A stretch of 61,485 nt of DNA, counting the filler, from Perkinsus olseni (Eukaryota): the NCBI GenBank assembly GCA_013115125.1. It is 5 parts of 5 records of this genome, joined end to end, with 100 filler letters (N's around TTAATTAATTAA, not from the genome) between each part and the next. Parts side by side here need not be neighbours in the genome. Positions count along the whole stretch, not along the records: positions 12,348 to 24,592 come from JABANN010000800.1; 4 more parts are not named here. One strand, written 5' to 3'. Every line of letters starts with the position of its first letter. Positions within the stretch are counted from its first letter, which is position 1. A program made the translations under genes and the position numbers. The notes beneath the pieces were generated by a model, which did no database searches, was not told the origin of the DNA, and saw only the letters and a list, made by a program, of their open reading frames with translations. This document shows positions 6,928 through 49,299 of the stretch, piece after piece.

Positions 6928-7960
6928 TCACATCAAGAAGGGACCTGGATTCAGCTTCTGTTTGATGCCGTACATTAGGGACCGGGTGTCGTTGGGCGGG
7001 AGGTCAGACTGCAATACCCACGCCATGAGGCCACCCAGACCCTGATTCTTGGCGAAGTCTATCTTCTCCTGTAAGATGGGCTGGGAGTCGAAGAAGTAGC
7101 CATTGAAGGATCCATTGCCTTTGGGGTCCGCCCCATCAGCAACAAGTTTAGTATACCTTGCCTGTGCTCCAGCTTTGTTCTCACCGTACAGAGGTACCTG
7201 CACACGGAGATGTCAAATTGAATGACGGGAGTGCGAAGTGGGAGGACTCACCCCTAGGCCGAATTTGGCGGGATCCAGCTCTTCTTCGTTGATCCATTGG
7301 TTGACCATTGACTTCACCCAGGGGATGTTGGACTACCCTCTAGGGTCATTGTGGTTGTCATATCCCATCCACAGGCACATATCTACCGCACAGGTCAATG
7401 TCCTTGTAGAAGTGGTACGAGCCGCCGATTCTGAAAGATCGTTTCCAATTCAACAGGGTGTAACCCTTGACTTACGCCACCGTGACACGAGCATTCCTGC
7501 CTCCCCTTCTCACGTTGGCCCGCGTATTCTTCATAAGATCTCGGTACTTCTTCCATTCAGCTGTGCTACCGGGGAACTCCCAGTCGAAGTTGATACCATC
7601 GAATAAGTACTTCTCGAACATGTCGTTAGCGGACTCGAAGAACGCCGAGTAGACGCTTGAGTTGGCGTTGATAAAGGGAACCCCCTGGAGCATGAAGGAA
7701 ACTCTAGCATTGTGTTGGTCCGCCGCCTTGCGAGCCATACGCAGCTGGGTGTCATCAGGGAAGGCCTTTTGCAGAGCGCCAGCGGCCGAGACGGAGAACC
7801 ATCCGAAGATGAGCTCCGTCACTCCGCAACTGAACAGGTCCTGGTAGTAAGTGGCGTCTTTGCCGGCTATATCATTCTTGTCGGTGAAGTAGGCGTAGAA
7901 CTCGAAGCCACTACTTGAGCGAATGGCCGTGGCCAAGAAAAAGTTTAGGATGCTCAGCAT
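6928..7960 (-). CDS. Secreted GH18 chitinase-like glycoside hydrolase, spliced
   Basis: Signal-like MLSILNFFLATAIRSSSG; catalytic region FDGINFDWEFPG; KFGLGVPLYG across an intron; C-terminal KIDFAKNQGLGGLMAW. Confidence 0.88.
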
Positions 7961-9291
7961 TGCCTGGGAGGGTGCTGCAAGGGAATGTTTGAGGTGGGGA
8001 ATCTCCTGCGGAAAAGATTCAACTCGAAAAGAGCAGCCAGACCCCTCCAATCACACTCAACCCGCACATCCCCGACTCATATTAGATTGTGAGGGGATGG
8101 GTAGCTGGGCATGCGTGCCGCGCGACTCTTGTGCATGCGATTGCACGCGGGTACACGAGACTGAAGCTACGTAGAGTAGGAGGCATCAGCTTGGGCTATA
8201 ACCGGAGAACCGGTCAAGCATTGAGCAATGGGGCTGCTTCATGTCATCTTCCTCGGGGATCGACCACTCGGGTGAAAGGCCGTCCAGCTCGAACAATAAT
8301 ATGCATGCTAGTGTTCTCCTAGTCTCGTCTGTGGTGCGCGCCCATCGTGCTAACAGCACAAAAACTGTTCATGTGGCTCCGACGGTCGGAGTCTGATCGC
8401 ATGATTTCCTGGGTTCAACACAGTGGGGAAACTAGGGAGGCGTCTACGCGCAGACCGGTGTTGTGAGCAGAGCTTCGGATAACCGTACGCTCCGGTTCGT
8501 CGTCATTGTGGTTGCGCTGGTTGTGCTGCCACCCATACGATAGGAAACCCCTTTCGATCATAATTCACATGCGGAAGTGTTACCATACAGTCGAGCCGGA
8601 TATGAGCACACTAGGTAGTCAAGCGCGACAGTGTCTGGCTATCCATTGGGTGTAAGCTGGTGGTCCTGGGTCATTAGTCTTCATTGTGTGAGCACACCGA
8701 GGGAACCGGGCGTCCCACTCGCTATCGATTAAGATAGTGGAGCGGGTGACATGCCATGACATGTGGGCGGTGCACGAGTACTAACGCCTGCATCGGCCTG
8801 GGGGATGTAAGAGTCACACGTGAAAGGCTCAAGAGTAGGCCCTACAAAGCAGCCCTGATCCACATCAACATTTATGCGACACCCAATATGTACTCGTTGT
8901 GCAATTTATCCTACTGCACGGAACCGATTCACGATGATGCGGTTACAGCGATTCGCAGTCAGCTGATGATCCGCCGAAACTAGTAAGTCATGGATTGCTA
9001 GAACTACCGAGCTGACTCTTGTCCCGGAAGATAAACACATGGGGGAGATATCGAGAATCACTTGGGTACATCCGGCACTGCCGGGCCGGCAGATTCTCGT
9101 CAAGTGATATCGAAAGACAATAAGGTCCATCGATAAGAGCGTGAGTCACCAAGGTACCGATGAGCCATTGTGGCGTGTACTTCTTAGTACTTAGTACTAC
9201 TTCAGAGGGCATATAAGGAGTTTCTGCTCCGATTGGTGAATTTCCTCTGAGGTAACCTCGTAACCTGGCTAGCTGCTTTACTTTGTCTCTA

Positions 9292-12247: not shown

Positions 12248-12347
12248 NNNNNNNNNNNNNNNNNNNNNNNNNNNNNNNNNNNNNNNNNNNNTTAATTAAT
12301 TAANNNNNNNNNNNNNNNNNNNNNNNNNNNNNNNNNNNNNNNNNNNN
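12248..12347. other. Assembly gap with TTAATTAATTAA linker
   Basis: N runs flank a six-frame stop linker; same structure at 24593-24692, 36907-37006 and 49200-49299. Plain N gap at 26487-26584. Confidence 0.97.
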
Positions 12348-12559
12348 CGCGCGATAACAAAGTGCGCCGATAAAAATAAATGCAAGGAAAAAGATACGCT
12401 TCGCTTTCCCGCCGTTCACACTTGCTGTACGCGCGCGCAGCTCAATTCATTGAAAATTTTCGGTAGTTACTGCAGTCTGTCGTTCCTTGAGAAGTCTTCG
12501 GGGTCTGTCTCGTGGATGTATCTTCAACTTCAGCTCGTTTAAGTGGTAATCAGCAATCA

Positions 12560-13609
12560 ATGCGTTACACCGCCCTCATCGCTGCCACCTTATCCGCATT
12601 CTTTAGTGAAGCAGTTCGTTACGACTCGACTTATAGTCCTGTTACTTGGGATGGGGAGTATCTGGCTACTTACGCATGGAATCAGTCTTACTATGCAGCG
12701 TCACCCGACCCCACCTTCATTGACTTCTTCGGGTCCCCCCAAGCGGCGAAGTACAACCGCGGTGATGTGTACCTCAACGTGGCCGATGCCTCCAACGCGG
12801 GGAAGCTCGCCAATCCCCAAGGATTGGCCCGGCTCATCCTCGACTTCCGCGAGGCTAGCGGCAGCGATGCAAGGTTCTACCTGTTCTATGGTGGTGGCGG
12901 CGGCGATGATAAAAAGTGGGCGCCCGACTTCGTTCGTGTGTTCAAGGAGTTCATTCTCCAGTACGGACATTCCGAGATGGGTCGCCTCGGTCTTAGCTTC
13001 AATGTTGAGCTTGGCCTTGATACGTGGTTCGAGATATTCCATAAAGTTGACAACATCAGGAACATCTCGGAAATCAAGGTTCACGACATTAAGGTTGATG
13101 TGACGTTGGACTACCGCAATCCAGATGAGACTCTGGTAGACAAGATCATGTACAAGGCCGATCACGTGACCGTGACCACTTTCAGCAACACGTATGAGGG
13201 CCTCCTAGACATGTTCAAGACTTTCCTCCTCGATACGTGTCCCCAATGCAACACAGACTACTACTGCAACTATAAAGCTCAGGTAACCTTCATGGCCGAG
13301 GGCAACTGCGACACGAAGTCGTGCAGTGAATCGTCGATGTGCGCTTATTACAGCTCCTGCCCTGAGGACCCCAATGGTGGCATCGGCTACGCCTACGACC
13401 AACTCACGAAGGCCTTCAACTACATCCCGGGTAACATTCTTCCCCAGTATAAGTTCGATCACTTCTTCAAACCTGGTGACACTCATTTCGGTCTCAACTT
13501 CTTCGAATGGACTGTTTGCTACTACGGTTACGAGTCCTGGTACGAGATTGATCTACCTAAGTGTGGCTGTGGTTACTTCCCTGCTTCGCAGAAGTGTCGT
13601 AATAGTTAG
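12560..13609 (+). CDS. Intronless secreted protein, paralogue A (349 aa), probable glycoside-hydrolase-like TIM barrel with Cys-rich C-terminal half
   Basis: Uninterrupted ORF; signal peptide MRYTALIAATLSAFFSEA; strong C-ending codon bias; collinear similarity to 17336-18373. Confidence 0.85.
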   Translation: MRYTALIAATLSAFFSEAVRYDSTYSPVTWDGEYLATYAWNQSYYAASPDPTFIDFFGSPQAAKYNRGDVYLNVADASNAGKLANPQGLARLILDFREASGSDARFYLFYGGGGGDDKKWAPDFVRVFKEFILQYGHSEMGRLGLSFNVELGLDTWFEIFHKVDNIRNISEIKVHDIKVDVTLDYRNPDETLVDKIMYKADHVTVTTFSNTYEGLLDMFKTFLLDTCPQCNTDYYCNYKAQVTFMAEGNCDTKSCSESSMCAYYSSCPEDPNGGIGYAYDQLTKAFNYIPGNILPQYKFDHFFKPGDTHFGLNFFEWTVCYYGYESWYEIDLPKCGCGYFPASQKCRNS

Positions 13610-14105
13610 TGTTCATATTTTTAAGTCTTAAGTCACAGTACATCGTACTCTTGGCCGAGTCCACCGGTCAAGTTTTTCTCGACTCAGATTTATTTTATTT
13701 TCCGGGAGAGAGCCCTCTAAGAATCATAGCATGGTCGAGGGTCAGATGCTGTGTAAGGTGCGTGCCGTCGAGTAAGGCAGGGGTGTGGTGCGATCCCCAA
13801 ATTTCGTCTCATCGGTTAGAGTCCGTGCTCTGGATGAGACACAGGTGACCACTTTTTAGCCGAATCCAACTTAAAAAGCAACCTTAAGGTTGTCACTTCA
13901 TTCAGTCTTGAGTTAGTTACCATCTGGAACTACCCTCTGTGGGCTACGCTGCCTGCCATACGGGTAGCCCAGAACTCCGTGGGTGCCTTGACTGGGCGGT
14001 TTTGTGCTGCATCCCTTTGGATGGTAAAGAGTTTCGCCACCTCTTGAACGAGTGAGTGAAACCGTGTAGATGCGGGCGCGCCGATACCTTGTGTGGGAAT
14101 ACCTC

Positions 14106-14217
14106 CTCCCCGCTCAGTAGAGTTCTTCTGATGCTTAGAACCGATTCTAGAATCGATTTTTACACGTAAAATGCGGTCCCAGAATCGATTATGAGTTTCG
14201 GAATTGGTTTATCGAAC
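14106..14217 (-). repeat. Dispersed GAATC/GATTC-rich repeat, copy A
   Basis: Reverse complement aligns by eye with 61139-61240 over about 100 bp and with 28105-28168. Confidence 0.7.
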
Positions 14218-14749
14218 GGTCCCTTCGAGTTTATTATCTCCCTCGACCTCGCAGGATCCGGTAAGTTGGTGGGACCTCTTACGCGTGCCGCTCCCGTAGC
14301 CTCTGTAATCGCCTTCCTTCATCACGTTGAAGAAGCGTACTACCAGCCGTAAGTCGTCACTGTCCCTGCTGAGTTGGTTCTCGAGGGGCAGGCAACGGTT
14401 GTCGAACGCGACTGTTACGCTGTAGCCTTCGTCCCTCCTATGGGTGTCCATCAGTCACATCTCGCGTCTTGGTGCATTCAACGCCACAACGAGGTTAGTC
14501 GTGACGTGGCACGCTCTCGTCAGCTCTGACGCTTCTCAGGATCCTCTCGCACCACCAGTCGTCCACCGGACTCAACCTTCTGTCCAGAAGGCCCTCGAAG
14601 ATAGCTCAAGTAACGTAGCCGTGTCGATACGTCCGCTTTTTCGGTTCTAGGTGTGCCGACACGAGAAGCAAGATTCGAGGAGATTTCCGAGGACACTCAT
14701 CAGAACAGCGACGTGGGGTTTATCAGTCTGGAAAACCGGACTGATTCCA

Positions 14750-15782
14750 TTGACCACATGGTTTTCGACTCGTGACGAACTACTTATCGTGGCAGCTCGT
14801 TTCAAGAAAGTTCATCGTCGATTCTCTTCAAGGTTCCGAGCGAGGGGCGACCAACGCCGACCGCTGCCGACCTCTTCAACTTCCACGAGAGCACTCCGCT
14901 CAGTCGGGAATCAGAAGATTCAACGACCACCATAGACCCCGTCATTTCCTCTGACATCATCGACGTCCAGCACGACGATGATGGCGCATCTGTTCCAGTC
15001 AAGGACTCTAGCTACGAGTATGACTTCGAGAGTAGCAGCTGCGAAGCCGATACTTCTAGAAGCTGTAGCGAAGACAACATTGATATTAACGCACTCGAGG
15101 AGAATGAAGCCCGAGAGAGTCTGGCCATTCACGAGGTTCAACCTAAGATTCCGCTGAGTGAGTCCTCTCAAGCGAGACACATTCCTTTGTGTAAAAGTGT
15201 TCACGGTGATGACGTGGCCGAGACGAGATACCCAAGCGATAATGAGAGAACACTTGAAAGTGCTGCGCAAGGTACGTCAACTTGCGCGAGGTTTCCACTT
15301 CAGATGACTTTACCGCTCCCCTCCCTCTCGATGGCATGGCCAAGCCGCATTGCGGGAGGTCGAAGCGTCAGCGTCGTCGAGGGAAGAGATGATTGTTGTC
15401 TATCATGTTACTTGATGAAGCATGTTGTTACTTCACTGTCATTGCACAGTACGCAGTTGAAATCTACGTGGAGTTTGTAGTCAGTCAGACTCTCGACGGG
15501 ATTTTTACAGCGATCGCTCTGACGGTCCCTGAGGTATCCTTCACTCGAATCCTCCTATATGTTCGCGACCAAATTCTGTCTGAGGAGCGACACGACTCTT
15601 TCTTCCGCTCCCACGTTACACGCTACGACGCCCTTATTGGTGCGTACAAGGTCACCACAAGTTCAAGTTCATGTTTCACTGAGTCATCCATCATAATCAC
15701 ACCGGCCTCTTTTCGAATTTCTTCTTGTGGGTCGAGGGAACTCAGCCAGCTTGCCCAGCTGTTCGCCATTTCTCTCGTCTAA
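14750..15782 (+). CDS. Hypothetical acidic Ser-rich protein, partial spliced model
   Basis: Long open frame ILFKVPSEGRPT...DPVISSDIIDVQHDDD...ESAAQ ending at a GTACG donor, followed by an exon-like EIYVEFVVSQTLDG... segment. Ends unknown. Confidence 0.3.
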
Positions 15783-17335
15783 ATCCCGAGTAGACACTGA
15801 CGATACTTCGCCTCTGACCTCCCTCAACGCCATAATGAGCATCCACTGCGACATACAGTCAGTAGTGATGATCATGCTCACTCACACCAGTTAAAGTCAG
15901 GAAGGAGTTCTCCTCGAAAATGGCCAGTCCACTCAGCGGCTAAGAGGCCAAGGCTTCTGCCGAGGGGCAGGGTCTTCCTGTAGATAATTCTGATGCTGCT
16001 GGTTGGAGGGGAAAGTCGAAAGACTGTTCAGGGTTCAACGATACCTCTAATATCCATCGGCCTCAACCCGAACTTTCGTTGCGCAAGGAACCTTGATCAG
16101 CTTGCCGCTAGTAGACGATGAGTGTATTGAGGCGGAAGGGTTGGGTTGGACTACATCAGTTACAGTTTCTTATTATGCGCCGAACGTCCTGTGTTTGCGT
16201 GCATAGCTGATTCTCCTCAAGAGAGTAAGCTTGGAAAGGTAGAAGACTTTTCACTCTTTCTCGCTTTGAGTTGACCATGAGCAACAACGGTAGAGCAACA
16301 GTTGCTGATCCAGTATAACCCCGTTACTCAGTTCGCGCGCTGTGGTGTAGCGTGCGACGGATCTAGTAGGACGTACGCAGAACGCGTTCGGAAGGGCAAT
16401 CGAATAGTATTACGTCTTGACTGAGCGAATCTGAGTCGACACCTTTAAGAAAGAGTTAATAATGAGGCTGTTTCCGTGATATACTCTACAGCCGAGTGCA
16501 CAGTCGGCGCATTTACTCGGGCTCGCCCCTCGAATCAGGATCCGCGTACCGGCCCTGCACGTGTGCGCACTGATGTTCCGAGATACTGTCAGGGACTCGA
16601 CACGCGGCTAGGGTCGATGAAGTTCAAATACATGCTAGCTGACTGCCTCCCCCACTCTTCACGACGCTTTCTTTGTGCCTCGAATTTAACTCCCGATACT
16701 CGGTTAATAGTGGCGAACTTTCGATGAGTTGTTTCCGACCTGTTGCTGTCACGCGCGTACGTTTTCTCGTGGCGCAGCACTGTTCCATGGCACCACTGCG
16801 TGCTGCTACTCGTCCCGCAGATTTCGGTCGAATTAACGCAGCGCTGCCGCGATTTTACAACAGTATCACGTTGTTCGGCCCGCACAACCTCATTGCTAAC
16901 GATTTCCATACCTGGGAGTAGATGTGGTCTCGTAACTTCTCACTCAACTTACGTGATTTCCAGGGACAGCTCCGCGAAGGGCCGCTGAAGTGCGCGATTT
17001 TCTTATCTTCTACTGCGTTGAAAGCAAATGGCTGGCCGAAAAGTAGTCTACGTGTAAAAGAGGTTCAGGAGACTGTTTTACACCGGTGGTCTTGGGCATC
17101 GGGCCTCAGAAGAGCTCGAATGACACCGGTTGGCCATCCAGTATCGCCGGGACAACTCAGTGTACTGTACATGCGTTCTGGTTGCTGTACGCATGCGCAT
17201 AGCTGAAAAGCCCCGCGGAAGCTCCAAAGAACCAGGAACTGGTTTCTTCTTAACGAACGTTACGACGCTCAGGCAACTCTCCAAGGTTTTTGCGGTAAGT
17301 TCCGTTTATTTTCAGTTCATATTCTAGCTTCTCGA

Positions 17336-18373
17336 ATGCTTTACGCTTCACTTGCCGCTGCACTGTCGTTCGTTGCCGCCGCCGCCGCCGAGGCCCACTG
17401 TATGGCTTCCTATGTATGGCAACAAGACTACTGGACGGGTAAGGACTCGTCCTACGATGACTTCTACAAAGCCCTCCGCAAGGACCACAAGTATGATGAT
17501 TACGATTGTGGTGATCTCTACGTCAACGTTGCCGATGCCTCCAATCAGGGGCACCTTGCTAACCCCAAGGGACTGGCCAAATTCATGGAAGACTACTACA
17601 AGCACAACAGCAAGGGAAGAGTGTACCTGTTCTACGCTGGTGGTGCCAAGGGGTATGATGACAAGAAGTGGGCACCCGAGTATGTGAAGACGTACACGGA
17701 GTTCGTCTACAAGTACGGCCCCAAGTACCACTGGGGACCCATCGGTATCAGCTTCGTTGACGTCGAGCTTGACGAGCATGCATGGAAGGATATTTTCCAT
17801 CACACTGATGAGATGAAACACTATCTTTACAAGCATTATAAGTACGACGTTTATGTTGATGTGCACTTCTACTACAACTACCACTACAAGCACCTGGTTG
17901 AACTGTACATGAAGCGAGCTGATCACGTTAGTGTTGCCACGTACAGCAACACTTACGAGGGTCTCATCAAACTTTACAAGTACTTCTTCAAGTATACTTT
18001 CCCTCATGCCTACGGTAAGGACTACTACAAATACAAGGCGAAGATCACCTTCGTTGGTGAGGGCAACTGCGAGAGCAAGCACTCCTGCGGGAAGACGTCC
18101 TTCTGTGCCTATTACTCTGACAAATACGATGATCCCAAGGGCGGCATCCGCTACGCTTATGACGTCTTCGAGAAGGCCGACACCTACGTTCGCCGTCACA
18201 TCCTCTCAAGGAAGCAGTACGAGCATTACTTCGAAGGCTACGGCTCCAAGTACGGCTTGAACTACTTCTATTGGGTCCAGTGCTATTACGGTAAGGACCT
18301 CTGGTACAAGGCTGGCCTCAAGCACTGTCGTAAGTACCGTTACTACTCCGACCAGTGCAGACGTCATTACTAA
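17336..18373 (+). CDS. Intronless secreted Tyr/Lys/His-rich protein, paralogue B (345 aa)
   Basis: Signal peptide MLYASLAAALSFVAAAAAEA. Shares blocks with paralogue A: GD.Y.NVADASN.G.LANP.GLA, DDKKWAP, ADHV, SNTYEGL, YKA..TF..EGNC, CAYYS, DP.GGI.YAYD, GLN.F.W..CYYG. Confidence 0.9.
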   Translation: MLYASLAAALSFVAAAAAEAHCMASYVWQQDYWTGKDSSYDDFYKALRKDHKYDDYDCGDLYVNVADASNQGHLANPKGLAKFMEDYYKHNSKGRVYLFYAGGAKGYDDKKWAPEYVKTYTEFVYKYGPKYHWGPIGISFVDVELDEHAWKDIFHHTDEMKHYLYKHYKYDVYVDVHFYYNYHYKHLVELYMKRADHVSVATYSNTYEGLIKLYKYFFKYTFPHAYGKDYYKYKAKITFVGEGNCESKHSCGKTSFCAYYSDKYDDPKGGIRYAYDVFEKADTYVRRHILSRKQYEHYFEGYGSKYGLNYFYWVQCYYGKDLWYKAGLKHCRKYRYYSDQCRRHY

Positions 18374-18608: not shown

Positions 18609-20222
18609 TCATCGGTTTAAACCGAAAGACCTGTTATTATAGAGCCAGTAGTATAGGTTGTACTTAAGGCTCGGAATAGTCGACAAATTTTTACGAAGGT
18701 GTTGAGTTGAAACAGTAGGGCACGATTGTTGAGCAATGAGCCAGGTCACCCGGACGACTCCTTCGGGATTGGCAACGCGAGGGACTGAGGACTCTCTGTC
18801 GGTCCACATCACAAGAATCAACGTGACTACTCGGGTTTTCAAGAAGCTTCTGCATCACTTGAGAGCGAAAGCCCTTCTCCCGTTGAGAGCGAACGTGGCA
18901 GAGTGCCAAGCTCATGTCGATGTGGCAGGTAATTTGCCGTGGAGTTCCTCTGGCACCTTTGGCAGAGAAGGGCCGGTACAATCGTCGTGATTGAGAGTCT
19001 CCTCTAACGCGTTTCTTGGCGTACGAAACTTCCTAGCAGTAGAGAAGTGCGGCCCAATTCGAATGCTCTGCCTCTTTGTAAGGAGACTTCCCACACCTAG
19101 AGGAGCCTCTTCAAGCTCCCTCATGAGCGACCTCAAGTGGCTTCCAGATTTTCTCATACCCTAAGCGAGAGGCACGCGCATCGGCAGGGGGTCGGGGTTC
19201 TCCGGAAGACCCTCTTCCTCAACCGGTTCCAATCTCGTTTGATCGAGAGCATAGCATTCCGAAGGCGATCGGTATCATTACGGGTTGTGCGTTAGCGCGC
19301 GGAATATACGCAGGAAGTAAAACAGAATTTTCCAGTTCTTTCCAAAAAAAAGTTGGAAATTCTAGAAAACTTTGTAAGTCTCACAGAAGCCCTCCCTGCA
19401 AAATTTCCCGAGTGCCTGATACGCCTCTCCTGAGCGTCTACAGCGCCACCTAAATGGAACCCCGGGGGCGCTTCTGAGATGCAAGCCAGGTCCGTTAAGC
19501 ACCCCTAGGAAGCGAATGAGACTTCCGAGGCCTCCTGGTTCACGAGTAATAACAACGGAGTGAGTTGGGTCGAGCACACAGTAGCCTTTTGTGACAGATC
19601 CGGCGGAGCACGCGTGCTGGGCGAGCGCTACTTGCAGCGCAGCTCGTCCCAGCTCCTTCTTGTCGTTGAAGCTTCCTGTGATACTCTGCTTACCAGTCTG
19701 ACTAGGTGTTGCGGGATGTAGTCTCAGCTTGGTCAAGGCCGCCGCCAATTCACGCTTCACCTGCGTCTCATGGCATGTTTCATTCATTCCCACCCTGGAT
19801 GACAGTCAGCGTTGTCACCACTCGGACGGGGTTTGAACCCCCGGTCGTTATGCTTCCTAGCGGCCCGAGGATTGGAAGAGGGTGATACTGGAAAATCTTA
19901 TTCAGGGGAGGTCTATTGAAGTACGGAATTCAGTAGTCGATTCTGAAACCGCTTTCCGTGGGAACGATCCATGCCAGAATTGATTTCAAGGCTGCTGATC
20001 AGGGCACTAGAGTGTAGGCTACGGAAAGGACGATCCCGGGGGTTCAATGGCCTCTCCTGATTTCCAAGACCACTTCATGAAGAGGCTGGCTGATTGTGAA
20101 CACAACGCCCGGGTTTTGTCATCTGGAATCAATTCTCTCATCGTCTGCCTCTTACCTTCACCGTAGCTTCTCGTCGGAGCGAGATAGGCTTTCTGTGGTC
20201 TAAACGTTACATCTTCTGCCAT
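18609..20222 (-). CDS. Hypothetical protein, multi-exon, head-to-head with the Sfi1-like gene
   Basis: Start MAEDVTFRPQKAYLAP at 20222; exon-like frames QVKRELAAALTKLRL and LRSLMRELEEAPLG. No family recognised; 3' end uncertain. Confidence 0.3.
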
Positions 20223-20337
20223 TGTGTTTTGCACGTCCTTAAATTCAATCCTGGGAGGGCTCAGGAGAGGTCCACTGAATATGGTCCGATCCCTTTTTCT
20301 GAAGACCTTCCGCTTTCTTAATGTCGATCCATCAGCC

Positions 20338-23300
20338 ATGACCACCCCGTCGGATCTGCTGGCGGAAGCCCTCCTAGCCGAGACCTTCAATACCACACCA
20401 TTCGCAACTCATGTCAACTTGCAGCTGTTGCTGGATGCCTTTGGAAAGGTACTGGAGCGGAGGGGGATTGGCAAGGCCGACGAAGGGGCAATGAAGGCCT
20501 ATCGGGCCATCCTCGCCAAGCACCGGGAGGCCTCTAAGCGATGCCGGGCGGAGCGAAAGCCTTTTCAATTCCGTCGTAGAAAGGACGTCGTCAGATCGTT
20601 CAGTTCGGTGAGCTCGATGGAGCCTCGATCGCCGCCCACTCCTGACGATTCTGAGCGGAGCGATGCGCCTCACTTCGGCTTCGAGGCAGTCTCTGTGATG
20701 GACAGTGTCGTCCAAGAGTCTCACCCTTCCACCACGCCTGGGCGCGTGAAAAAACCGGGGATGGTTATGGACGAAGTTGAAGAGATGGTATCGGTTCTAC
20801 CCAAGCTCGATGCCGCTGTAGATGGTCTTGAAGGTGTGGGTAGGGGACGCAGCCCGTCGCCCGATAGAAGTCCGGTATCGGGTCGTCGAAGGTTCGACGC
20901 CGGGAAGCTCTTTTCCTTGTCTATTCGCTGCGTGAGTCGTAGGGCTGTACTGAGGTGGCGTGAGGGAGCAATGGCACAGCGGAACAACAGGGAAGGGCTG
21001 CTGCTACTGTGGAAAAGGAGAGGGTTGAGGGCCTTTCACGCTGCTGTGATGGAGTGCAAGATGTTGCGATTTCGGGAAAAGTTGGTATCGGCGTATATTA
21101 AATCTGTACTAGGTTGCTGGAAGGAGTTCACAAGTCATCGGAAGGGCATTCGAGTCCGCGACGAGGAGCTGCTCAGCTCAGTGGAGACCATCGGGGATTT
21201 TGTGGAGGCCAACCGACTCACTCGGGCGTTCAACACGTGGCTGGATACGCTGAGATTTCGCCGGGAGTCGGACCGAAGAATCAAAAAGTTTCTGACTGGT
21301 CGAGCGGAGCGATGCATCATTAGATGGTCTCAGGTCGTGCAGGACTGTAAAAAACTGAGAGCGACGACGAGAATCTTCCGGCTGCGTCGCGGCTTGAGAG
21401 CTCTGAGGAGATTCCTTGAAGCGTCCAAGGCGGAGATCTACCGAGCGGTCGAGGTCGAACGATCGATTATGAAGCGTGCCTGGCAGCTGTGGACGCGGTA
21501 CCACTCCTGGCGGGCCGGTCTCAAGGCCTTCTACGCTACTCTCGAGCCCTCCCTCGAGACCATTCGACAGACAGCGGTCGTGAGAATGAGGAGGGGAGCG
21601 TTGAGGACTTGGCAGAGAGCCCATGAAATCAAGAGGGCTTATGATGGTGTTCGCAGGGCGGCGGTACGGAGGAGATCTGAGGCCGTCCTTCGGGAGTGGG
21701 TGACGCAACTTTTCGAGCGGCTGCATTTCCAGCGCGATTGTGTGGTCCATCTACAGAAGTGGCGGTTAGCTTTGGCGCTGCACAAGCTGGCATTTAATAG
21801 ACGGCTGGGCCTGTACAAATCGTCCGGGGTCGGGTATCTAGTCGAGAGAGGCCGACTGAGGGTGTTGGCGGGGGTATGCGACGCTTGGTTGGGGGAAGTG
21901 CGGTATCGACTAAACTGCTCACGCGTGGAGGTATGCGTCAGGCAGAGGGCGGCCACTTCTCTATTGACACGCTCCTTGGGGCACTGGCGGGCCCAGTACT
22001 CCCATCGTCTCCTCGACAGGGCACGTAATGAGATGGCTGCCCTCCAGTGGAAGCGTCGCTGTTTGTCTCGCTTTCTATCAGCCTGGCTCGGTCAGGCTGT
22101 CGATGGCCGAACCGTCCGGGAGGGCCTGTCGGTTATTTCTGGTAAAGTGAAGGGCGCTCACTTTAATGCTTGGCTCATACTGGCAGAGCTCGTCCGGGCT
22201 TCTCGTCTGAAGGTCTTAACGGTGGTCTTCGGGAACTGGTATAGAGAGAGCGCTCGAGTCCGTCGGTCGACCGTCGAAGCCGGCCAGAGGGCCGCGATCT
22301 CTCATCAACGGTTAGCGAGGATGGTTTTGTTCGGACTGAGGGACCTGGTGGGCTATCGGAGACTCTGCCGGCAAGCTGGGGTAAGGAGCAGCATCTTAGC
22401 GAAGCGAAGACGGACTCGTCTCGTCTTCGGGGAGTGGCTGGCTGCGGCCCAGTTGTGTGGTATGGGACGGAGGCTGGAATCTCGTCTGCCGCGCGTAGCT
22501 CTGCGATTGGCCTTCCATCGACTCCGATGGTTTACCGAACTCATGGGGCAGCGCGATGCCGAGGAGATGGCTCGAGCTGTTCTTTGGTATTTTCGAGCGC
22601 GTCTGGTGGCCTGGAAGAAACGGGTACGGTGGCAGAGCATCAAGAGAAGGGTTGTCGAGGGGCGTCGGAGGAAGAGGGTGAGTCTGGCCTTCGGGATCCT
22701 GGCGTGTTGGCGGGTTTACTGCCAACGGAATCGACAGGCGGCAACTCTCATACGGTTGAATTTGTATTCTGGGCGGAGCGGTGCAATTTTGAGAGCCTGG
22801 AGCGTCGCGGGGCGATCGAAGCAGATCGTGGATCGGCTCTTCGATTGTCACGTGAAACAAGTGGTTGTATCTTGCCTTGATGCATGGAAGATACAAGTAA
22901 AGTCAACAAAAGAGCTCCACGATCGACTGCAGTGTCGAGCAAGAGAGCGTTCGACTGCCCTGAAGAAGTTCGCAGCGACAGCTTGGAGAGTCGGCGTCCG
23001 TGCCAGCCGAGCAGCCGATCGTCGCCAACGTCTGAGTCTTGACGGCTGGCGCATGGTAGTAGCATCGAAGGCTCGCCTCCGCCAGAGAGCAGCGGCGGTC
23101 AGGAGAATCCGGGAAGGGAGGACGCTGAGTGGGTGGATAAGAAGGTAGTGAAGGGGAAAATCCGCAATACTCGACGAGGTCCTTCGGGCGTTCCAAAGAT
23201 TGTCATAGTTGACTGCCGTCAGGAGTCTTTGTCGGGAAGCAAGTTTCACTTTTCTCGCGAGGCCTGAGTAGCTCTCATTCACTCCGTGTCAGTTTTCGGG

Positions 23301-24528
23301 AGTCGCTGGCCCTCAACCTACGATGCGATGACTACCTTCACCTTCGTGCTACTCCGCTCCGCTCGAAGTTCCTTCGTGGGTGGTCCGGAGCTGCTAGAAA
23401 GCGCAGAGCCCTCGGGCGAGTGGAAGCCACCATCAACGCAGCAATGGAGTTCACAAGAATGGAGCTGGCCTTGGACCATTGGGCAGTGCAAACCGCGCGC
23501 GCCCAGGTCATGAACGAAATATGGCTCGTCACTGTCCCCGCGGCCCTGCTGCGATACCGAGCGAGGGAGTGCTTGGCGTACTGGAAGGCTCGAGTGAAGT
23601 CTGAGAAGTCCTCGATGAGTCGAGTGGTCATGGCGTGGCGTTACGAACTCCCTCGGATCATCGCGATGGAGCGATCGAGCGAATCCTTGGCGGTGCGGCA
23701 TCGGAGCGGGAAGGTGCTGAAGCAAGCCATGGTGGCCTTTATGATGGCTGTGGATGAGGGGAGGGAGTTGAGGAGAGCCCGCACAAGACTGGCGCTAGGC
23801 AGGTTCAGAAGGAGAGTAGCCAGTATACGAGCTCGCAGGGTTCGGTTGGGGGCCATGGCTGCGGCGAGCAGACTAAGACGTCTTGAAGCGGCCTTCGAGG
23901 GTTGGTGGAATTATCGGGTGGAAATCTCTGAAAGGCTGGAGCGATATCCTATCTGTCGACGAGGTAGATGCCGCAAGGAAATGCTCCTGGCGTATCATGA
24001 GCAAGTGGTCCTTCGACGATCGACTCTGTTGGCGTGGCGTCGTACGTGCCGGGAGAGGGCGGAGGAATCTGCTGTCAATCGGGCTGATCAGGAGATGGCG
24101 AAATTATTGGAGGTGAGTGTGCTTCGATCGGCGTGGAGGTTCATCGAAGTCCCACTTCTCAGATCGATCGACTCTTGCGGCCGGCGTTCCAAGCCATTCG
24201 AGATTCAGCGGTTAGCAGAAAATGCTTTACAGTGTGGTGCAGACGGGCGGAGCGAAGCTGGAAAGGGAGAATCTTAGGTCGAAGAGGGGATAATATCCGC
24301 CTTGGGAAGGTCTGGGCGGTCTGGGCCAAGGTAGTGCAGAATTTCGTGGCGCGCGGTAATGGTCTGTCGCAGGTCCTCGATCACATCAAGGTTCGAAACT
24401 CAACGGATAGAATACTCATGCAAAGTGTCTTTCAAACGTGGCGGGTTGGCGTGTCGGAAAATCGGCTAAAAAAGATGACAGCTTCGCTCCGCTGTTGGTG
24501 GGACCAAGAGGGGGGCGAAGAAGAATGA
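20338..24528 (+). CDS. Sfi1-like centrin-binding repeat protein; very long first exon plus later exons
   Basis: Arg-rich helical protein with recurring L/F-x-x-W units (RAFNTWL, RAWQLWT, VLREWV, FLSAWL, HFNAWL, VFGNWY, AFEGWW, VFQTWR), as in Sfi1 repeats. Confidence 0.7.
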
Positions 24529-24692
24529 GGAGTACCGTTTAGGTACGGAAGGTGAAATAGCAGCGCACAGGAGATGATGTTGTCGTTTCGGGNNNNNNNN
24601 NNNNNNNNNNNNNNNNNNNNNNNNNNNNNNNNNNNNTTAATTAATTAANNNNNNNNNNNNNNNNNNNNNNNNNNNNNNNNNNNNNNNNNNNN

Positions 24693-27600
24693 CGTGTGGT
24701 ACAATGGAGCCGTGATCAACCGCCAGGATTGCTTCGGCAAAACCACCCTGAAGGCGGCTTGGGTGGGGCATACCGACAGCACAGCTGCGCTGGGTGATTC
24801 TATCGGCACACGAGTAGCAAAGAAGGACCCGTTTATCCACAGGGAGAGCCCCGCCTGATCCTCCATCCACACCTGCGCCACATCCAATACCGATGAGAGA
24901 CCCGAGACCCCACTAGGGCTGATATCGTAGTAGCCCGAGGACCGGTCAACCACGCAGACATCCCGGCAGAAGGGGCACTTGGACTCGGTCGCTTTCTCAT
25001 CACTATCAGAGTACTTGGCGACATGTGAGGGAGTGAACATCTCCGTGACGAGGGCCGGCTCTTCGTTGCTAGCTGCAGGTAGGTCGAATCGAGGCGAACT
25101 CGCCTCTTCCTCTCGACGACTTGCAATGGGGAGCGACAAAGACGGCGCTGGTAACGGGTGGACGGAGCGGTAGTTCGTGACAACTACTGATCGACCTGCC
25201 TCGGATGCTTCGTCGGGCAGAGACTGGCTTGCACCTGAAACTCATCATCTTCAACATAACGTATCGAGCGCAAGGAGAAGCGTTCCCCCTTCTCCCGGGA
25301 AAACGAGAGGGCGGCCGAGCGGATAAATTCGACTGTGGTCCACTTCGGTTCTCTCAAGCAGTTCTGTTACCCACTACCTCCCCCACTGCGACATCTAGGA
25401 CTATCAGACTGGTAGCAGCCAAGATTATCAATACACAGACTAACGAGCAGGGAGGAAACTCTTAACCACGGATTGCGTGTACAATTCCAGTATTCACAGC
25501 TGTCTAACAACTCGAGCGCCCCTCTACGTCCCCCCACTGTGTACTACCAGCACGGCCTTGGTGCCTGCTCTCCCCGACAGAAGAGGCCGTCTGGGGCATC
25601 ATGAAGGCCCCTCCAGCTCCTCTGTACGTGACAGGTGATATCGAACTCGAGGCATCCTCCTCCGAGCCGCCAGTCTCCGTCGAGGAGCTCTTGGACATCT
25701 CCAGATGTGTTTTCCCGCTTCGCTCCGTCGACTCGAAGACGAAAACCGACCGTACCCCACCGCACACCCGAGTAAACTTCATCGAACCACTGTCCTGCTC
25801 TCGGAAGACTTCGCCGTTCCGCAGCAGAGCCAGCAGGACCACTCCCCCAGTTTCATCGCGGAAGAGCTGAATTTGCCTTAGAGGGCTCGGTAGGGCTTCA
25901 AACCGAACGCTCTTGCCGACAGTGAAGTCGCCCGGGCCGTTGAAGACGTAGGAGGTAGCTTCGGTCGAGGTAGCCACGACGACTTGGTTCCCTTCACAGG
26001 TAGCCAACGACCGCACCTCGGCAGCCGCCCAAACCTCTACACTGGCCAGCTTTGCCGTATAGTAGTCAAGTCGAGCACCCATGTCCCAAATCATCAACCG
26101 CCCACTGCTATTGAACGTAACACCATACTCCGCTAGACTGCACGCTGCCCGGACTCGACCCACTAGACGCTCATGTGCCACGTCGCCGAAGAGCCTCCAC
26201 TTGTCCCGCAGGATGCTGTAGACGGCAAAGCCCAGCTCGCCGCAGATCAAGACCCAATGGCCAGGCCGGCTCGCGAACACTCGAGGAGGCCAGTTGGTGC
26301 GCATGTACATGTGCGGGTAGGCCACGGCCTTCCACGAGCTATCCGTTCCCCTCGGCAGCAGCATTCTCTCGTGTGAAGCCAATAAAGGAACAGAAGGGCA
26401 GCTCACATCATCTCCATTGCCAGTGATGAAAGAGGGGTGCTCGAGTACAGCAGGGAACTTCACGACGTCACTTTCGTCAGAAGACCNNNNNNNNNNNNNN
26501 NNNNNNNNNNNNNNNNNNNNNNNNNNNNNNNNNNNNNNNNNNNNNNNNNNNNNNNNNNNNNNNNNNNNNNNNNNNNNNNNNNNNCCCCGTAGCCGCTTTC
26601 CTCTTCTCCGCGACCTCGGTCTCGCAGGAGCCAAACTTCGGAAATGCCCTCTACTTTAACGCTTATAGCAACGAGGCCGCTAGGCCCTCCAGCAGCGCAG
26701 GTTGCTACTACTCGATCCCTAGCCGGAGTTCCCTCGGGATGATTGGCCATAAACGACTCCGCTACTCGGGCGAGCGATCGATACTCTTCAAAAGCCAGGA
26801 TGCCATTCGCGGTCCGCTTCATCGTGGACAGGTCGACCTTGGGCGCCCGCTGTTTATAATGATCGGTGTCCAGGAGGAGTATCATGCTACTTGAAGTAGC
26901 CTCGGTCGGATAGGAAATGATGAACAATCTGTGACCAGCGCCGGGGATGAGAGAAAATCTCTCACTAGGTACGCTCAAAGTGCATTCGAGTTCGACAAGA
27001 CAGTGCAGTTGGCGTAGTTGGTGGGACCTGAGCATAAAGATTCGCCCTCAACTAGACCGAACAAGCAAGACTCGGATTCGACCCAGCAGCCTTTCGGTGA
27101 CTAGCCGGGGATATCACCCACTGAGCTAATCACACACTCTTCCCGAATAGCACCTCACATGCCGCTTAGTTCCGCCTTCATCGTCGTAGTCAGTGTCAGC
27201 CTCATCATAATCATAATCCGCCCCTCTCTTGAATTCCGCAGCATCATCTCCGAACTTCACCCGAAAGACGGCCACCAAATGCCGCGTCGACAGCTGCAAG
27301 AAGACTCTGCTAGAATCACCCGACCATGCATGTAACCTGATCGATTAATCAATCCACAACAACATGTCCTGCGCCTACTACTACCCAGTGAAGGTGGTCA
27401 GGCTCTCTTCGGCCGAGTCCAGTTCAGAGCCGGAGTGCCGAGCGTTGGGCTCTCGCAGTGTTGTACCCAGCATGGAGGCCGCACTCCTCAAACGATACAT
27501 GGGAGCCTGTTGCTGTTGGTAACCAGCTGCGTAGAATTGTGCCTGCGAACCAGATTCTGACACCTCTAGCTGATGTTTTCACTTGCAATCACACCTCTCG

Positions 27601-36726: not shown

Positions 36727-37006
36727 CCATTGTCACTTTTATAGTGTTAGAGTTATTGTATGACCGATTCGAATCGAATCATTCGATGGCAACTCCTAAC
36801 GAGGTGGCGTACCCCATTGCGATGAATTAGAGGACCATCCCTGAACTATTCAAAGCACGATTAAACACATTCTACAACCACAAAGAATAAGTGAATTCGT
36901 TGTTCGNNNNNNNNNNNNNNNNNNNNNNNNNNNNNNNNNNNNNNNNNNNNTTAATTAATTAANNNNNNNNNNNNNNNNNNNNNNNNNNNNNNNNNNNNNN
37001 NNNNNN

Positions 37007-48664: not shown

Positions 48665-48737
48665 GCCTTCTTAGCTTAGTTGGTAGAGCACCCGCTTAGT
48701 AAGCGGGAGGTCGTCGGTTCAACTCCGGCAGAAGGCT
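48665..48737 (+). tRNA. tRNA-Thr(AGT), array copy 1
   Basis: Full cloverleaf: acceptor GCCTTCT/AGAAGGC, anticodon arm CCCGC-TTAGTAA-GCGGG, T loop TTCAACT. Confidence 0.97.
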
Positions 48738-48900
48738 ATGGATGCAGTTGTTTACTGCCCCTTTTGAAGGGAAAAATTACTGAAATTTTGCTAAAGAGTT
48801 TTCACAAATTCTGCCAGAATTTCTTGAACCACTTCAGTTGTAGCGGTTTTCGTTTCGTGCGCCCAGATTTCGATCATTACCACCTCTGAGTTTAGCGCGT

Positions 48901-48973
48901 GCCTTCTTAGCTTAGTTGGTAGAGCACCCGCTTAGTAAGCGGGAGGTCGTCGGTCCAACTCCGGCAGAAGGCT
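48901..48973 (+). tRNA. tRNA-Thr(AGT), array copy 2 with T-loop variant
   Basis: Identical to copy 1 except T loop TCCAACT (T55C, within the B box). Confidence 0.88.
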
Positions 48974-49133
48974 ATGGATGCAGTTGTTTACTGCCCTCCT
49001 GAAGGGAAAAATTTCCGAAATTTTGCTAAAGAGTTTTCACAAATTCTGCCAGAATTTCTTGAACCACTTATTTGTAACGGTTTACGTTTCGTGCGCCCAG
49101 AATTCGATCATTACACCTCTGAGTTAAGCGCGT

Positions 49134-49199
49134 GCCTTCTTAGCTTAGTTGGTAGAGCACCCGCTTAGTAAGCGGGAGGTCGTCGGTTCGACTCCGGCA
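49134..49199 (+). tRNA. tRNA-Thr(AGT), array copy 3, truncated by the gap
   Basis: Same sequence with T loop TTCGACT; ends at the N run. Confidence 0.9.
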
Positions 49200-49299
49200 N
49201 NNNNNNNNNNNNNNNNNNNNNNNNNNNNNNNNNNNNNNNNNNNTTAATTAATTAANNNNNNNNNNNNNNNNNNNNNNNNNNNNNNNNNNNNNNNNNNNN

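What the first reader, a model, noticed from the sequence alone, without database searches (positions are those of the whole stretch)
12560..18373. Pair of intronless secreted paralogues with a cryptic glycoside-hydrolase-like barrel
Seen: two signal-peptide proteins of about 350 aa, collinear, with conserved cysteines, no introns among intron-rich neighbours, and strong codon bias. Inference: eight strand-like segments (SYVW, LYVNVAD, VYLFY, ISFVDVE/LSFNVE, VDV, DHVSVATY, KITFVGE, GLNYFYW) follow the GH18-like (beta/alpha)8 pattern, with Glu kept after strand 4. I cannot assign a named family. Candidate highly expressed, lineage-specific wall-building or remodelling family, possibly of bacterial or retroposed origin.
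Basis: partly seen in the sequence, partly recalled or inferred. Interest (0 to 1): 0.75.

Follow-up and report, generated by a model that had tools for sequence, protein, structure and literature searches.

The report
Secreted chitinase-like barrel gene pair
Two neighbouring intronless genes of the clam parasite Perkinsus olseni encode secreted proteins with a very divergent chitinase-like barrel fold whose catalytic residues are decaying, so they are more likely sugar-binding or wall proteins than working enzymes.

Summary
Two intact single-exon ORFs (12560-13609, 349 aa, "A"; 17336-18373, 345 aa, "B") are 43% identical paralogues with signal-peptide-like N-termini. Named relatives are all Perkinsus, so the window is P. 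olseni.

Pfam, NCBIfam and PDB sequence searches find nothing.

Foldseek hits are mostly GH18 chitinases and non-catalytic GH18-like proteins, but TM is only about 0.45-0.58. A profile comparison with 74 bacterial GH18 domains scores 31.1 against 12.5-19.8 for 30 shuffles. It aligns three GH18 hallmark motifs in register.

The wider family has Perkinsus long forms and 61 unnamed metagenome proteins. It keeps D-x-E, the strand-6 Tyr and a strand-7 Glu almost invariantly. The Perkinsus-only subclade holding A and B does not: the strand-4 Glu survives in 3 of 9 members, and A's 86% relative has Gly.

B is compositionally extreme (Tyr 16%, Lys 11%, His 6%; pI 8.7, versus 4.8 for A). No relative was confirmed in bacterial genomes, and a shared upstream motif argues against retroposition. 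Function is inferred, not shown.

The parts
12560..13609 (+). Gene A: single-exon CDS, 349 aa, acidic (mature pI 4.77), 11 Cys, two N-x-S/T sequons
12560..12613 (+). A: predicted signal peptide (about 18 aa, cleavage site inferred by eye after SEA)
   Evidence: (pLDDT <50); no dedicated predictor run
12989..13012 (+). A strand 4 and its C-terminal end 'GLSFNVEL': N148-V-E150 where the wider family has D-V-E-H and GH18 has D-W-E
13163..13189 (+). A strand 6 'HVTVTTFSN': F208 replaces the family and GH18 Tyr; N210 is kept
13280..13309 (+). A strand 7 'QVTFMAEGNC': E247 is kept (61 of 62 in the long-form clade)
17336..18373 (+). Gene B: single-exon CDS, 345 aa, Tyr 16.2% / Lys 11.0% / His 5.8%, basic (mature pI 8.70), 8 Cys, C-x-x-C pair lost
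17336..17395 (+). B: predicted signal peptide (about 20 aa) with a poly-Ala run that is one Ala shorter than in database entry P0001
17741..17770 (+). B strand 4 'IGISFVDVEL': D142-V-E144 is kept, with a one-residue insertion
17924..17950 (+). B strand 6 'HVSVATYSN': Y203 is kept, the only one of 9 subclade members to keep it
18041..18070 (+). B strand 7 'KITFVGEGNC': E242 is kept
12422..12439 (+). Upstream element TTGCTGTACGCGCGCGCA, 138 nt before the ATG of A; candidate shared promoter or regulatory motif
17182..17199 (+). Upstream element TTGCTGTACGCATGCGCA, 154 nt before the ATG of B (16 of 18 identical to the copy before A)

Best explanation
A and B are tandemly duplicated, intronless Perkinsus olseni genes. 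They encode secreted, cysteine-rich proteins with a (beta/alpha)8 barrel fold.

They belong to a family absent from Pfam and NCBIfam. I judge it a very divergent offshoot of the GH18 chitinase-like barrels. Its long-form clade keeps equivalents of the GH18 strand-3 motif (TYGD against SxGG), the strand-4 D-x-E and the strand-6 M-x-Y. It also has an extra invariant Glu on strand 7. Those long forms are probably real glycosidases acting on a GlcNAc-type polymer.

A and B sit in a Perkinsus-only subclade. This subclade lost the N-terminal linker, evolved fast, and no longer conserves the catalytic positions.

The most likely working mode is therefore like the non-catalytic GH18 relatives (concanavalin B, XAIP, YKL-40). 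The barrel groove would bind a glycan of the parasite wall or surface, or of the host, without cutting it. B has been further remodelled into a basic, Tyr/Lys/His-rich surface that suits adhesion or cross-linking in a wall.

Shown: the genes, their paralogy, the predicted fold, the distribution, and the pattern of residue loss. Inferred: GH18 homology (weak sequence signal, moderate structural signal), secretion, the non-catalytic binding or structural role, and any link to the wall.
For: Genes and paralogy.

Fold: model of A on 70 sequences has pLDDT 91.7 and pTM 0.87, with eight alternating strands and helices. Model of B on 5 sequences has pLDDT 70.1 and pTM 0.76, with the same topology.

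Structural neighbours: 242 PDB hits at E<=1e-3. The top hit is concanavalin B 6caf (E=1.5e-6, TM 0.46/0.54). By my reading of the descriptions, 40 of the 46 listed rows are GH18 enzymes or GH18-like non-enzymes (SleL, hevamine, XAIP, haementhin, YKL-40 and others). lean the same way.

Language-model neighbours: GH18 clusters at 0.88-0.89, which is a lead only.

Profile comparison: the family against 74 bacterial GH18 domains scores 31.1 (P=0.004) over 117 columns. It aligns TYGD with SxGG, SFDVE with DIDWE, and MxYRN with MtYD. The reversed control scores 18.4. 0 of 30 block shuffles reach the real score (range 12.5-19.8).

Conservation in 62 long-form sequences: D 62/62, E 61/62, Tyr 61/62, strand-7 Glu 61/62.

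Erosion in the 9 short forms:
- strand-4 Glu: E in 3, D in 2, A in 2, G in 1, K in 1
- strand-4 Asp: kept in 2
- strand-6 Tyr: kept in 1 (B)
- strand-7 Glu: kept in 5
(P0094 read by eye). A keeps 36 and B 35 of the 61 columns that are >=85% conserved in the long forms. The short forms alone give no GH18 signal (score 19.7).

B composition and charge.

Database label: UniRef names two P. marinus orthologues 'Chitinase'.
Against: GH18 homology:
- No Pfam GH18 match even at E<=10 for A and B, or at E<=1 for 24 relatives.
- hhalign probability is only 8.5%, and global alignment fails.
- Foldseek TM on the query is below 0.5 with rmsd of about 7 A. Other barrels appear with similar scores: MTHFR, GH113, GH53, GH5, GH79, PgaB.
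- Block shuffling destroys the beta/alpha order, so any barrel family might beat that control.

Non-catalytic reading:
- A and B themselves keep both Glu residues, and B keeps the full D-x-E plus Tyr. One or both could still be enzymes.
- Several columns that changed from the long forms are conserved within the subclade (D180, V193, T226, N/D313). That could mean a new specificity rather than loss of function.

Other gaps:
- No expression, localisation or activity data were found.
Confidence: 0.5

Rival explanations
1. A and B are active glycoside hydrolases (chitinase-like or wall-remodelling enzymes). The strand-4 Glu acts as the acid, and changes elsewhere in the groove reflect a new substrate.
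For: Both keep the strand-4 Glu and the strand-7 Glu, and B keeps D-x-E plus the strand-6 Tyr. Some subclade-specific columns are conserved. A canonical GH18 gene lies 4.5 kb away. UniRef labels the orthologues 'Chitinase'.
Against: The Glu is replaced in 6 of 9 subclade members, including Gly in the 86%-identical relative of A and Lys in the P. marinus orthologue. A has Asn for the Asp and Phe for the Tyr; I recall from the literature that in GH18 enzymes both substitutions cripple catalysis. B replaces several otherwise conserved groove residues by Tyr: R88, position 179 and position 312.
Confidence: 0.28
2. The family is not GH18-like. It is a retaining glycosidase of the 4/7 type (clan GH-A), with an acid/base Glu on strand 4 and a nucleophile Glu on strand 7.
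For: Both Glu residues are 61/62 conserved in the long forms. GH113, GH53, GH5, GH2 and GH79 barrels appear among the Foldseek hits.
Against: These hits rank below the GH18 hits in the confident model. By my recollection, clan GH-A has an Asn just before the acid/base Glu; this family has V-E. The profile comparison aligns three GH18 motifs in register. No profile of a GH-A family was available for a matching test.
Confidence: 0.12
3. A and B are host-directed secreted effectors. Like the plant GH18-like inhibitors (XAIP), they would bind and block host enzymes, or mask parasite glycans from clam lectins.
For: XAIP-II, XAIP-III and haementhin are among the best structural matches (TM on target 0.55-0.58). 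The proteins look secreted, evolve fast and are lineage-specific, and catalytic residues are decaying.
Against: No direct evidence exists. The structural similarity is generic, and no host partner is known. No interaction test was run.
Confidence: 0.08
4. The pair arose by horizontal transfer from bacteria or by retroposition, which would explain the lack of introns.
For: Both genes are intronless among several split neighbours. Long-form relatives carry a bacterial-looking lipobox-like G-C after the N-terminal hydrophobic stretch.
Against: Zero relatives were confirmed in one genome per 185,579 bacterial and archaeal species; the scan needs exact matches to two peptide patterns. The named relatives are all Perkinsus. 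In the rooted tree the pair nests among Perkinsus long forms. A and B share an upstream element outside the CDS. No poly-A remnant is evident after either stop codon.
Confidence: 0.05

Closest known systems
GH18 chitinases, class III type (hevamine, ScCTS1) and bacterial GH18 (SleL, ChiB)
   Same: Eight-stranded barrel. They are the best Foldseek matches. In the wider family, the strand-3, strand-4 (D-x-E) and strand-6 (M-x-Y) motifs align in register with the GH18 profile.
   Different: No Pfam PF00704 match. Only the last D-x-E of the DxxDxDxE motif is present. There is an extra invariant Glu on strand 7, a C-x-x-C, and a Cys-rich C-terminal extension. TM is below 0.5 on the query. In A the Asp is Asn and the Tyr is Phe.
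Non-catalytic GH18-like proteins: concanavalin B, XAIP / haementhin, tamarind chitinase-like lectin, YKL-40 and its SPx-40 orthologues
   Same: They hold the top structural match (6caf) and many others. Like the A/B subclade, they keep a barrel scaffold while catalytic residues are replaced.
   Different: There is no detectable sequence similarity. A and B themselves still carry the strand-4 Glu. Ligands and partners are unknown here.
The canonical GH18 gene in the same window (exons 7472-8050 and 6928-7212, minus strand)
   Same: Same organism and neighbourhood. Its 'GINFDWE' aligns with the family's 'GISFDVE'.
   Different: It matches Pfam GH18 (E=8.8e-10) and has introns. Its profile-to-sequence similarity to the A/B family is weak (P=0.018).
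Tyrosine-rich wall proteins of coccidian oocysts and Tyr/Lys/His-rich trematode eggshell or mussel adhesive proteins (recalled, not retrieved here)
   Same: B has 16% Tyr, 11% Lys and 6% His, and a basic pI. I recall this composition from proteins hardened by dityrosine or quinone cross-links.
   Different: As I recall, those proteins are mostly disordered or repetitive. B is predicted to be a folded barrel. No cross-linking evidence exists.

Membership tests
GH18 (Pfam PF00704, CAZy clan GH-K) | (beta/alpha)8 barrel catalytic domain | tested here: met
   AlphaFold2 models give eight strands alternating with helices. A: pLDDT 91.7, pTM 0.87. B: pLDDT 70.1. These are predictions, not experiments.
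GH18 (Pfam PF00704, CAZy clan GH-K) | Match to the family's sequence model at its curated threshold | tested here: not met
   0 Pfam families at E<=10 for A and B. No GH18 hit at E<=1 in 24 relatives. 0 NCBIfam hits at E<=10 for 5 proteins. 0 PDB sequence hits for B, and only noise for the family profile.
GH18 (Pfam PF00704, CAZy clan GH-K) | DxxDxDxE motif ending strand 4, with the catalytic Glu (motif recalled from the literature) | tested here: inconclusive
   The long forms have S-F-D-V-E, so only the final D-x-E (D 62/62, E 61/62). B has D-V-E and A has N-V-E. The Glu is kept in 3 of 9 short forms.
GH18 (Pfam PF00704, CAZy clan GH-K) | Strand-6 M-x-Y-D/N Tyr and strand-3 S-x-G-G (recalled) | tested here: inconclusive
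   hhalign aligns MxYRN with MtYD and TYGD with SvGG. The Tyr is 61/62 in the long forms but is kept in only 1 of 9 short forms (B).
GH18 (Pfam PF00704, CAZy clan GH-K) | Significant profile-profile or structural similarity | tested here: inconclusive
   hhalign score 31.1, P=0.004, probability 8.5%; shuffles 12.5-19.8 and reversed control 18.4. Best Foldseek E=1.5e-6 but TM 0.46/0.54.
GH18 (Pfam PF00704, CAZy clan GH-K) | Hydrolysis of chitin or another GlcNAc-containing glycan | not testable with these tools
No publication was found for the locus tags.
Clan GH-A (4/7 superfamily) retaining glycosidases | Glu at the end of strand 4 and Glu at the end of strand 7 | tested here: met
   E150 and E247 in A; E144 and E242 in B; 61/62 each in the long forms. 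Their spatial relation was not examined because no coordinates were available.
Clan GH-A (4/7 superfamily) retaining glycosidases | Asn immediately before the acid/base Glu (N-E-P type motif, recalled) | tested here: not met
   The residue before the Glu is Val (D-V-E-H in long forms, N-V-E-L in A).
Chitinase-like lectins / GH18 pseudo-enzymes | GH18-type barrel with catalytic residues substituted, and glycan or protein binding instead of hydrolysis | tested here: inconclusive
   The substitution pattern in the subclade fits. The top structural hits are such proteins. Binding was not testable, and A and B keep the Glu.
Bacterial lipoproteins (considered for the long-form relatives only) | Lipobox [LVI][ASTVI][GAS]C after an N-terminal hydrophobic segment, in a bacterium with Lgt/Lsp (recalled) | tested here: inconclusive
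   A lipobox-like [GAS]C was found by regex in 43 of 62 N-termini, with about 8 more by eye, including Perkinsus P0086-P0088 and P0093. No bacterial relative was confirmed. A and B lack the motif.

The most novel reading that the evidence does not exclude
The Perkinsus short forms are enzyme barrels turned into building blocks. B, with 56 Tyr, 38 Lys and 20 His on a folded barrel and a basic charge, would be a cross-linkable 'brick' of the thick prezoosporangium or trophozoite wall, hardened by dityrosine or quinone chemistry. It would possibly pair electrostatically with its acidic neighbour A.

Their long-form ancestors would be eukaryotic proteins tethered to the cell surface by a lipid on a conserved N-terminal Cys exposed by signal-peptide cleavage. 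That device looks bacterial but here sits in Perkinsea.
Probability: 0.12. Interest if true: 0.7.

Novelty: new variant of a known kind. Interest (0 to 1): 0.45.

Why it matters
- The parasite: Perkinsus olseni is a major parasite of farmed clams. From the papers I read, little is reported about the molecules of its wall and surface (passages only).
- Databases: this family is invisible to Pfam and NCBIfam and carries only an automatic 'Chitinase' label in UniRef. Defining it as a divergent GH18-like barrel family, with a probably catalytic long form and a decaying short form, corrects that label.
- Markers: the family gives candidate wall or surface markers, and a sequence signature for uncultured relatives in metagenomes.
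- Evolution: it is a clean natural example of an enzyme scaffold drifting to a non-catalytic role.

Tried and rejected
- Sequence searches of A, B and relatives against Pfam, NCBIfam and PDB found nothing useful.
The source organisms of the unnamed proteins, including P0007 and P0010, therefore stay unknown.
The genomic context of the 61 metagenome relatives, and whether they are eukaryotic, could not be checked.
- The bacterial and archaeal genome scan with the family alignment gave 22 pattern matches and 0 relatives. A second attempt with alignment A3 failed for lack of a conserved stretch.
- tblastn of the window's GH18 exon against plasmids, meant to harvest GH18 sequences, gave no match. 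GH18 domains were harvested from bacterial genomes by a degenerate motif instead.
- hhalign in global mode failed (score 2.9). The short forms alone gave no signal (19.7).
- The AU test of a recent A+B duplication was indecisive (p=0.08). The age of the duplication is open.
- Literature searches by locus tag and by topic found nothing on these proteins. The P. marinus EST paper has no mention of chitin, cell wall or glycosyl hydrolase in its main text; its supplements were not opened.
- No complex prediction was run, because I do not claim that A and B bind.


Full report
WHAT IS THERE

They are collinear paralogues with 138/324 identities (43%) and E=1e-85. The window holds no third copy.

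Each begins with a hydrophobic, signal-peptide-like segment that the structure models leave disordered. No dedicated signal-peptide predictor was available. Both ORFs align end to end with full-length homologues, so they have no introns.

Several neighbours are clearly split. A Pfam-positive GH18 gene has exons at 7472-8050 and 6928-7212 (-). An aldehyde dehydrogenase has exons at 50473-50907 and 51025-51369 (-). There are also kinesin, eIF2A and ankyrin fragments. Two long unbroken ORFs also occur.

Codon bias exists but is moderate. ENC is 49.1 and 43.8, against 47-61 for nine other ORFs or exons. A-ending codons are only 7-8%, and TTC:TTT is 25:1 and 16:0.

ORGANISM AND DISTRIBUTION

B is 100% identical to a Perkinsus olseni hypothetical protein (P0001), apart from one extra Ala in that entry's poly-Ala run. 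No identical entry was returned for A. Its best hit is a P. olseni protein at 85-86% identity (P0002). Next come P. marinus Pmar_PMAR003265 (55%) and Pmar_PMAR007343 (49%), both named 'Chitinase' by UniRef, and a P. chesapeaki protein (55%).

An exhaustive HMMER pass over 1.84 billion representatives with A found 33 proteins at E<=1e-3 and 18 at E<=1e-10. A search with the distant member P0017 gave 61 proteins. The only ones with an organism name are 5 Perkinsus proteins. The rest are unnamed metagenome predictions on contigs up to 230 kb.

A pattern-plus-tblastn scan of one genome per 185,579 bacterial and archaeal species gave 22 pattern matches and 0 confirmed relatives. That scan depends on two exact peptide patterns. 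The identity of the uncultured carriers therefore stays open.

FAMILY STRUCTURE

A 76-sequence tree splits the family in two.
- Short forms: 9 sequences, support 100, stem 2.87.
- Long forms: 67 sequences. They comprise Perkinsus long forms plus a single 61-member metagenome clade (support 99).

With five metagenome sequences as outgroup, all Perkinsus sequences group together (100/100), and the short forms nest among the Perkinsus long forms on a long stem (1.52). The root is assumed, not shown.

A has orthologue-like partners in P. marinus and P. chesapeaki. B sits on a long branch (0.94-1.58) with deviant composition, and I found no closer relative. Forcing A, P0002 and B together costs 10.7 log-likelihood units (p-AU 0.08). 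The age of the duplication is therefore unresolved.

An 18-nt element, TTGCTGTACGCNNGCGCA, occurs only twice in the window: 138 nt before the ATG of A and 154 nt before the ATG of B. The expected count is 0.09, and 0 of 100 shuffles gave two matches. The pattern was derived from these two sites, so that statistic is post hoc. It still argues for a DNA-level duplication that carried upstream sequence, not retroposition.

FOLD

With only five sequences, B folds as a barrel at modest confidence (pLDDT 70.1, pTM 0.76). With 70 sequences, A gives pLDDT 91.7 and pTM 0.87, with strands at 34-39, 70-76, 106-111, 143-148, 178-184, 202-207, 241-247 and 310-312 alternating with helices.

RELATION TO KNOWN FAMILIES

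Pfam (E<=10), NCBIfam (E<=10) and PDB sequence or profile searches are empty or give noise.

Foldseek with the confident model gives 242 PDB hits at E<=1e-3. The top hit is concanavalin B (E=1.5e-6, TM 0.46 on query and 0.54 on target). By my reading, 40 of 46 listed rows are GH18 chitinases or GH18-like non-enzymes. The lower-confidence model and the viral library lean the same way. Both also list MTHFR, GH113, GH53, GH5 and other barrels at similar scores. TM stays below 0.5 on the query, so this is a lean towards GH18, not a proof. The language-model atlas points to GH18 clusters at 0.88-0.89, below the level the tool calls more than a lead.

For a direct test I harvested 116 bacterial loci carrying the DGxDxDWE motif, extracted 74 GH18 domains and ran hhalign.
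- The family profile scores 31.1 (P=0.004, probability 8.5%) over 117 columns.
- It places TYGD on SxGG, SFDVE on DIDWE, and MxYRN on MtYD.
- The reversed alignment scores 18.4, and 30 block shuffles score 12.5-19.8.
- The window's own GH18 exon aligns GINFDWE to GISFDVE at P=0.018.
- The short forms alone score 19.7, which is no signal.

I conclude that the family is probably a very remote GH18-type barrel. It fails the family's sequence-model test, so I do not file it as a GH18 member.

ACTIVE-SITE POSITIONS

In 62 long forms the strand-4 Asp is 62/62, the strand-4 Glu 61/62, the strand-6 Tyr 61/62 and a strand-7 Glu 61/62. That is what purifying selection on catalysis would give. It fits the GH18 D-x-E/Tyr pattern (recalled) with an additional carboxylate. 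Alternatively it fits a 4/7-type pair of Glu residues, but the Asn expected before the acid/base Glu is absent.

In the 9 short forms (P0094 read by eye):
- The strand-4 Glu is E in 3 (A, B, P0007), D in 2, A in 2, G in 1 (P0002, 86% identical to A) and K in 1 (P0094).
- The strand-4 Asp survives in 2 (B, P0007).
- The strand-6 Tyr survives in 1 (B).
- The strand-7 Glu survives in 5.

A keeps 36 and B 35 of the 61 columns that are >=85% conserved in the long forms. What is kept is mostly Gly, Asp, Ser and Cys framework positions. Some changed columns are uniform within the short forms (D180, V193, T226, N/D313), so the groove is altered rather than simply decayed.

PECULIARITIES OF B

B has Tyr 16.2%, Lys 11.0% and His 5.8%. 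A has 8.3%, 5.2% and 1.7%, and eight other relatives have 3.6-8.2% Tyr. Of its residues, 27 Tyr, 25 Lys and 15 His are found in no other short form at that column. Some replace otherwise conserved residues: R88, position 179, position 312, and the C-x-x-C pair. Mature B is basic (pI 8.70, +9) and mature A is acidic (pI 4.77, -15).

INTERPRETATION

The best-supported reading is that A and B are secreted GH18-like barrels of a Perkinsus-specific, fast-evolving subfamily under relaxed or redirected constraint at the catalytic positions. They would act by binding a glycan, or as wall or surface components, as the non-catalytic GH18 relatives do. The long forms are the likely enzymes. I put this at about 0.5.

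The main rival, at about 0.28, is that A and/or B (B above all) still hydrolyse a glycan. A host-directed inhibitor or masking role, a GH-A-type mechanism, and a bacterial or retroposed origin are less likely.

No expression, localisation or biochemical data were found. Locus-tag searches and topic searches gave nothing. For the papers opened I saw passages only: PMC8062965, PMC7398310, PMC3942036, and PMC2868825, which had zero hits in its main text.

LIMITS

- Model coordinates could not be inspected, so groove geometry and disulfide pairing are not shown.
- The GH18 motifs and the chemistry of Tyr-rich wall proteins are recalled knowledge, not retrieved here.
- The block-shuffle control does not exclude a generic barrel signal.
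- The carriers of the metagenome relatives are unknown.

Noticed in passing
window 6928-8050 (- strand): A canonical GH18 chitinase gene with introns. The exon at 7472-8050 matches Pfam PF00704 positions 4-139 (E=8.8e-10) and carries 'DGINFDWE'. The exon at 6928-7212 matches positions 286-317 ('GGLMAWVLQSD'). The middle of the domain (profile 140-285) was not located in the roughly 260 nt between them. It lies about 4.5 kb upstream of gene A, so a true GH18 sits next to the two GH18-like genes.
   Followed up: partly
related proteins, not in the window: P0086-P0088, P0093 (Perkinsus) and most metagenome long forms: Long-form relatives carry a bacterial-lipobox-like [GAS]-Cys after the N-terminal hydrophobic segment. 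The regex found it in 43 of 62, with about 8 more by eye. A 20-85 aa Ser/Thr/Pro/Gly-rich linker follows. The long forms have 11 conserved Cys, an odd number, in alignment A4. A conserved N-terminal Cys in a eukaryote suggests lipid anchoring, or a bacterial past. No bacterial relative was confirmed.
   Followed up: partly
window 12701-13204 (-) and 17348-18205 (-): Long antisense open frames lie across both genes: 167 and 285 codons stop to stop. This is most simply a by-product of the sense-strand codon bias (few A-ending codons) and not evidence of antisense genes.
   Followed up: partly
window 17375-17392: The GCC-repeat poly-Ala run in B's signal peptide is one Ala shorter than in database entry P0001. 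This is a length polymorphism between assemblies or haplotypes.
   Followed up: no
window 48665-49199 (+): A tandem array of three tRNA genes spaced about 236-239 nt apart. Two are tRNA-Thr(AGT). The third matches the tRNA model only partially and abuts a masked run.
   Followed up: no
window 12248-12347, 24593-24692, 36907-37006, 49200-49299; also 26487-26584: Paired 44-nt runs of N, separated by 12 nt, recur every 12.3 kb or so. There is also one 98-nt run. The regular spacing looks like masking or an assembly artefact, not biology. One pair lies about 210 nt upstream of gene A, so part of its upstream region is unreadable.
   Followed up: no
window 20188-24277 (+): Two long open frames (986 and 354 codons) sit in a GC-richer stretch (0.56-0.58) with strong positive GC skew. 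Neither has a Pfam match. They may be one large gene of unknown function.
   Followed up: no
window 13610-17335: The 3.7-kb spacer between A and B holds a 234-codon open frame (14776-15480, +) with no Pfam match and only a chance-level similarity to B (E=0.30). Whether it is a gene was not resolved.
   Followed up: partly
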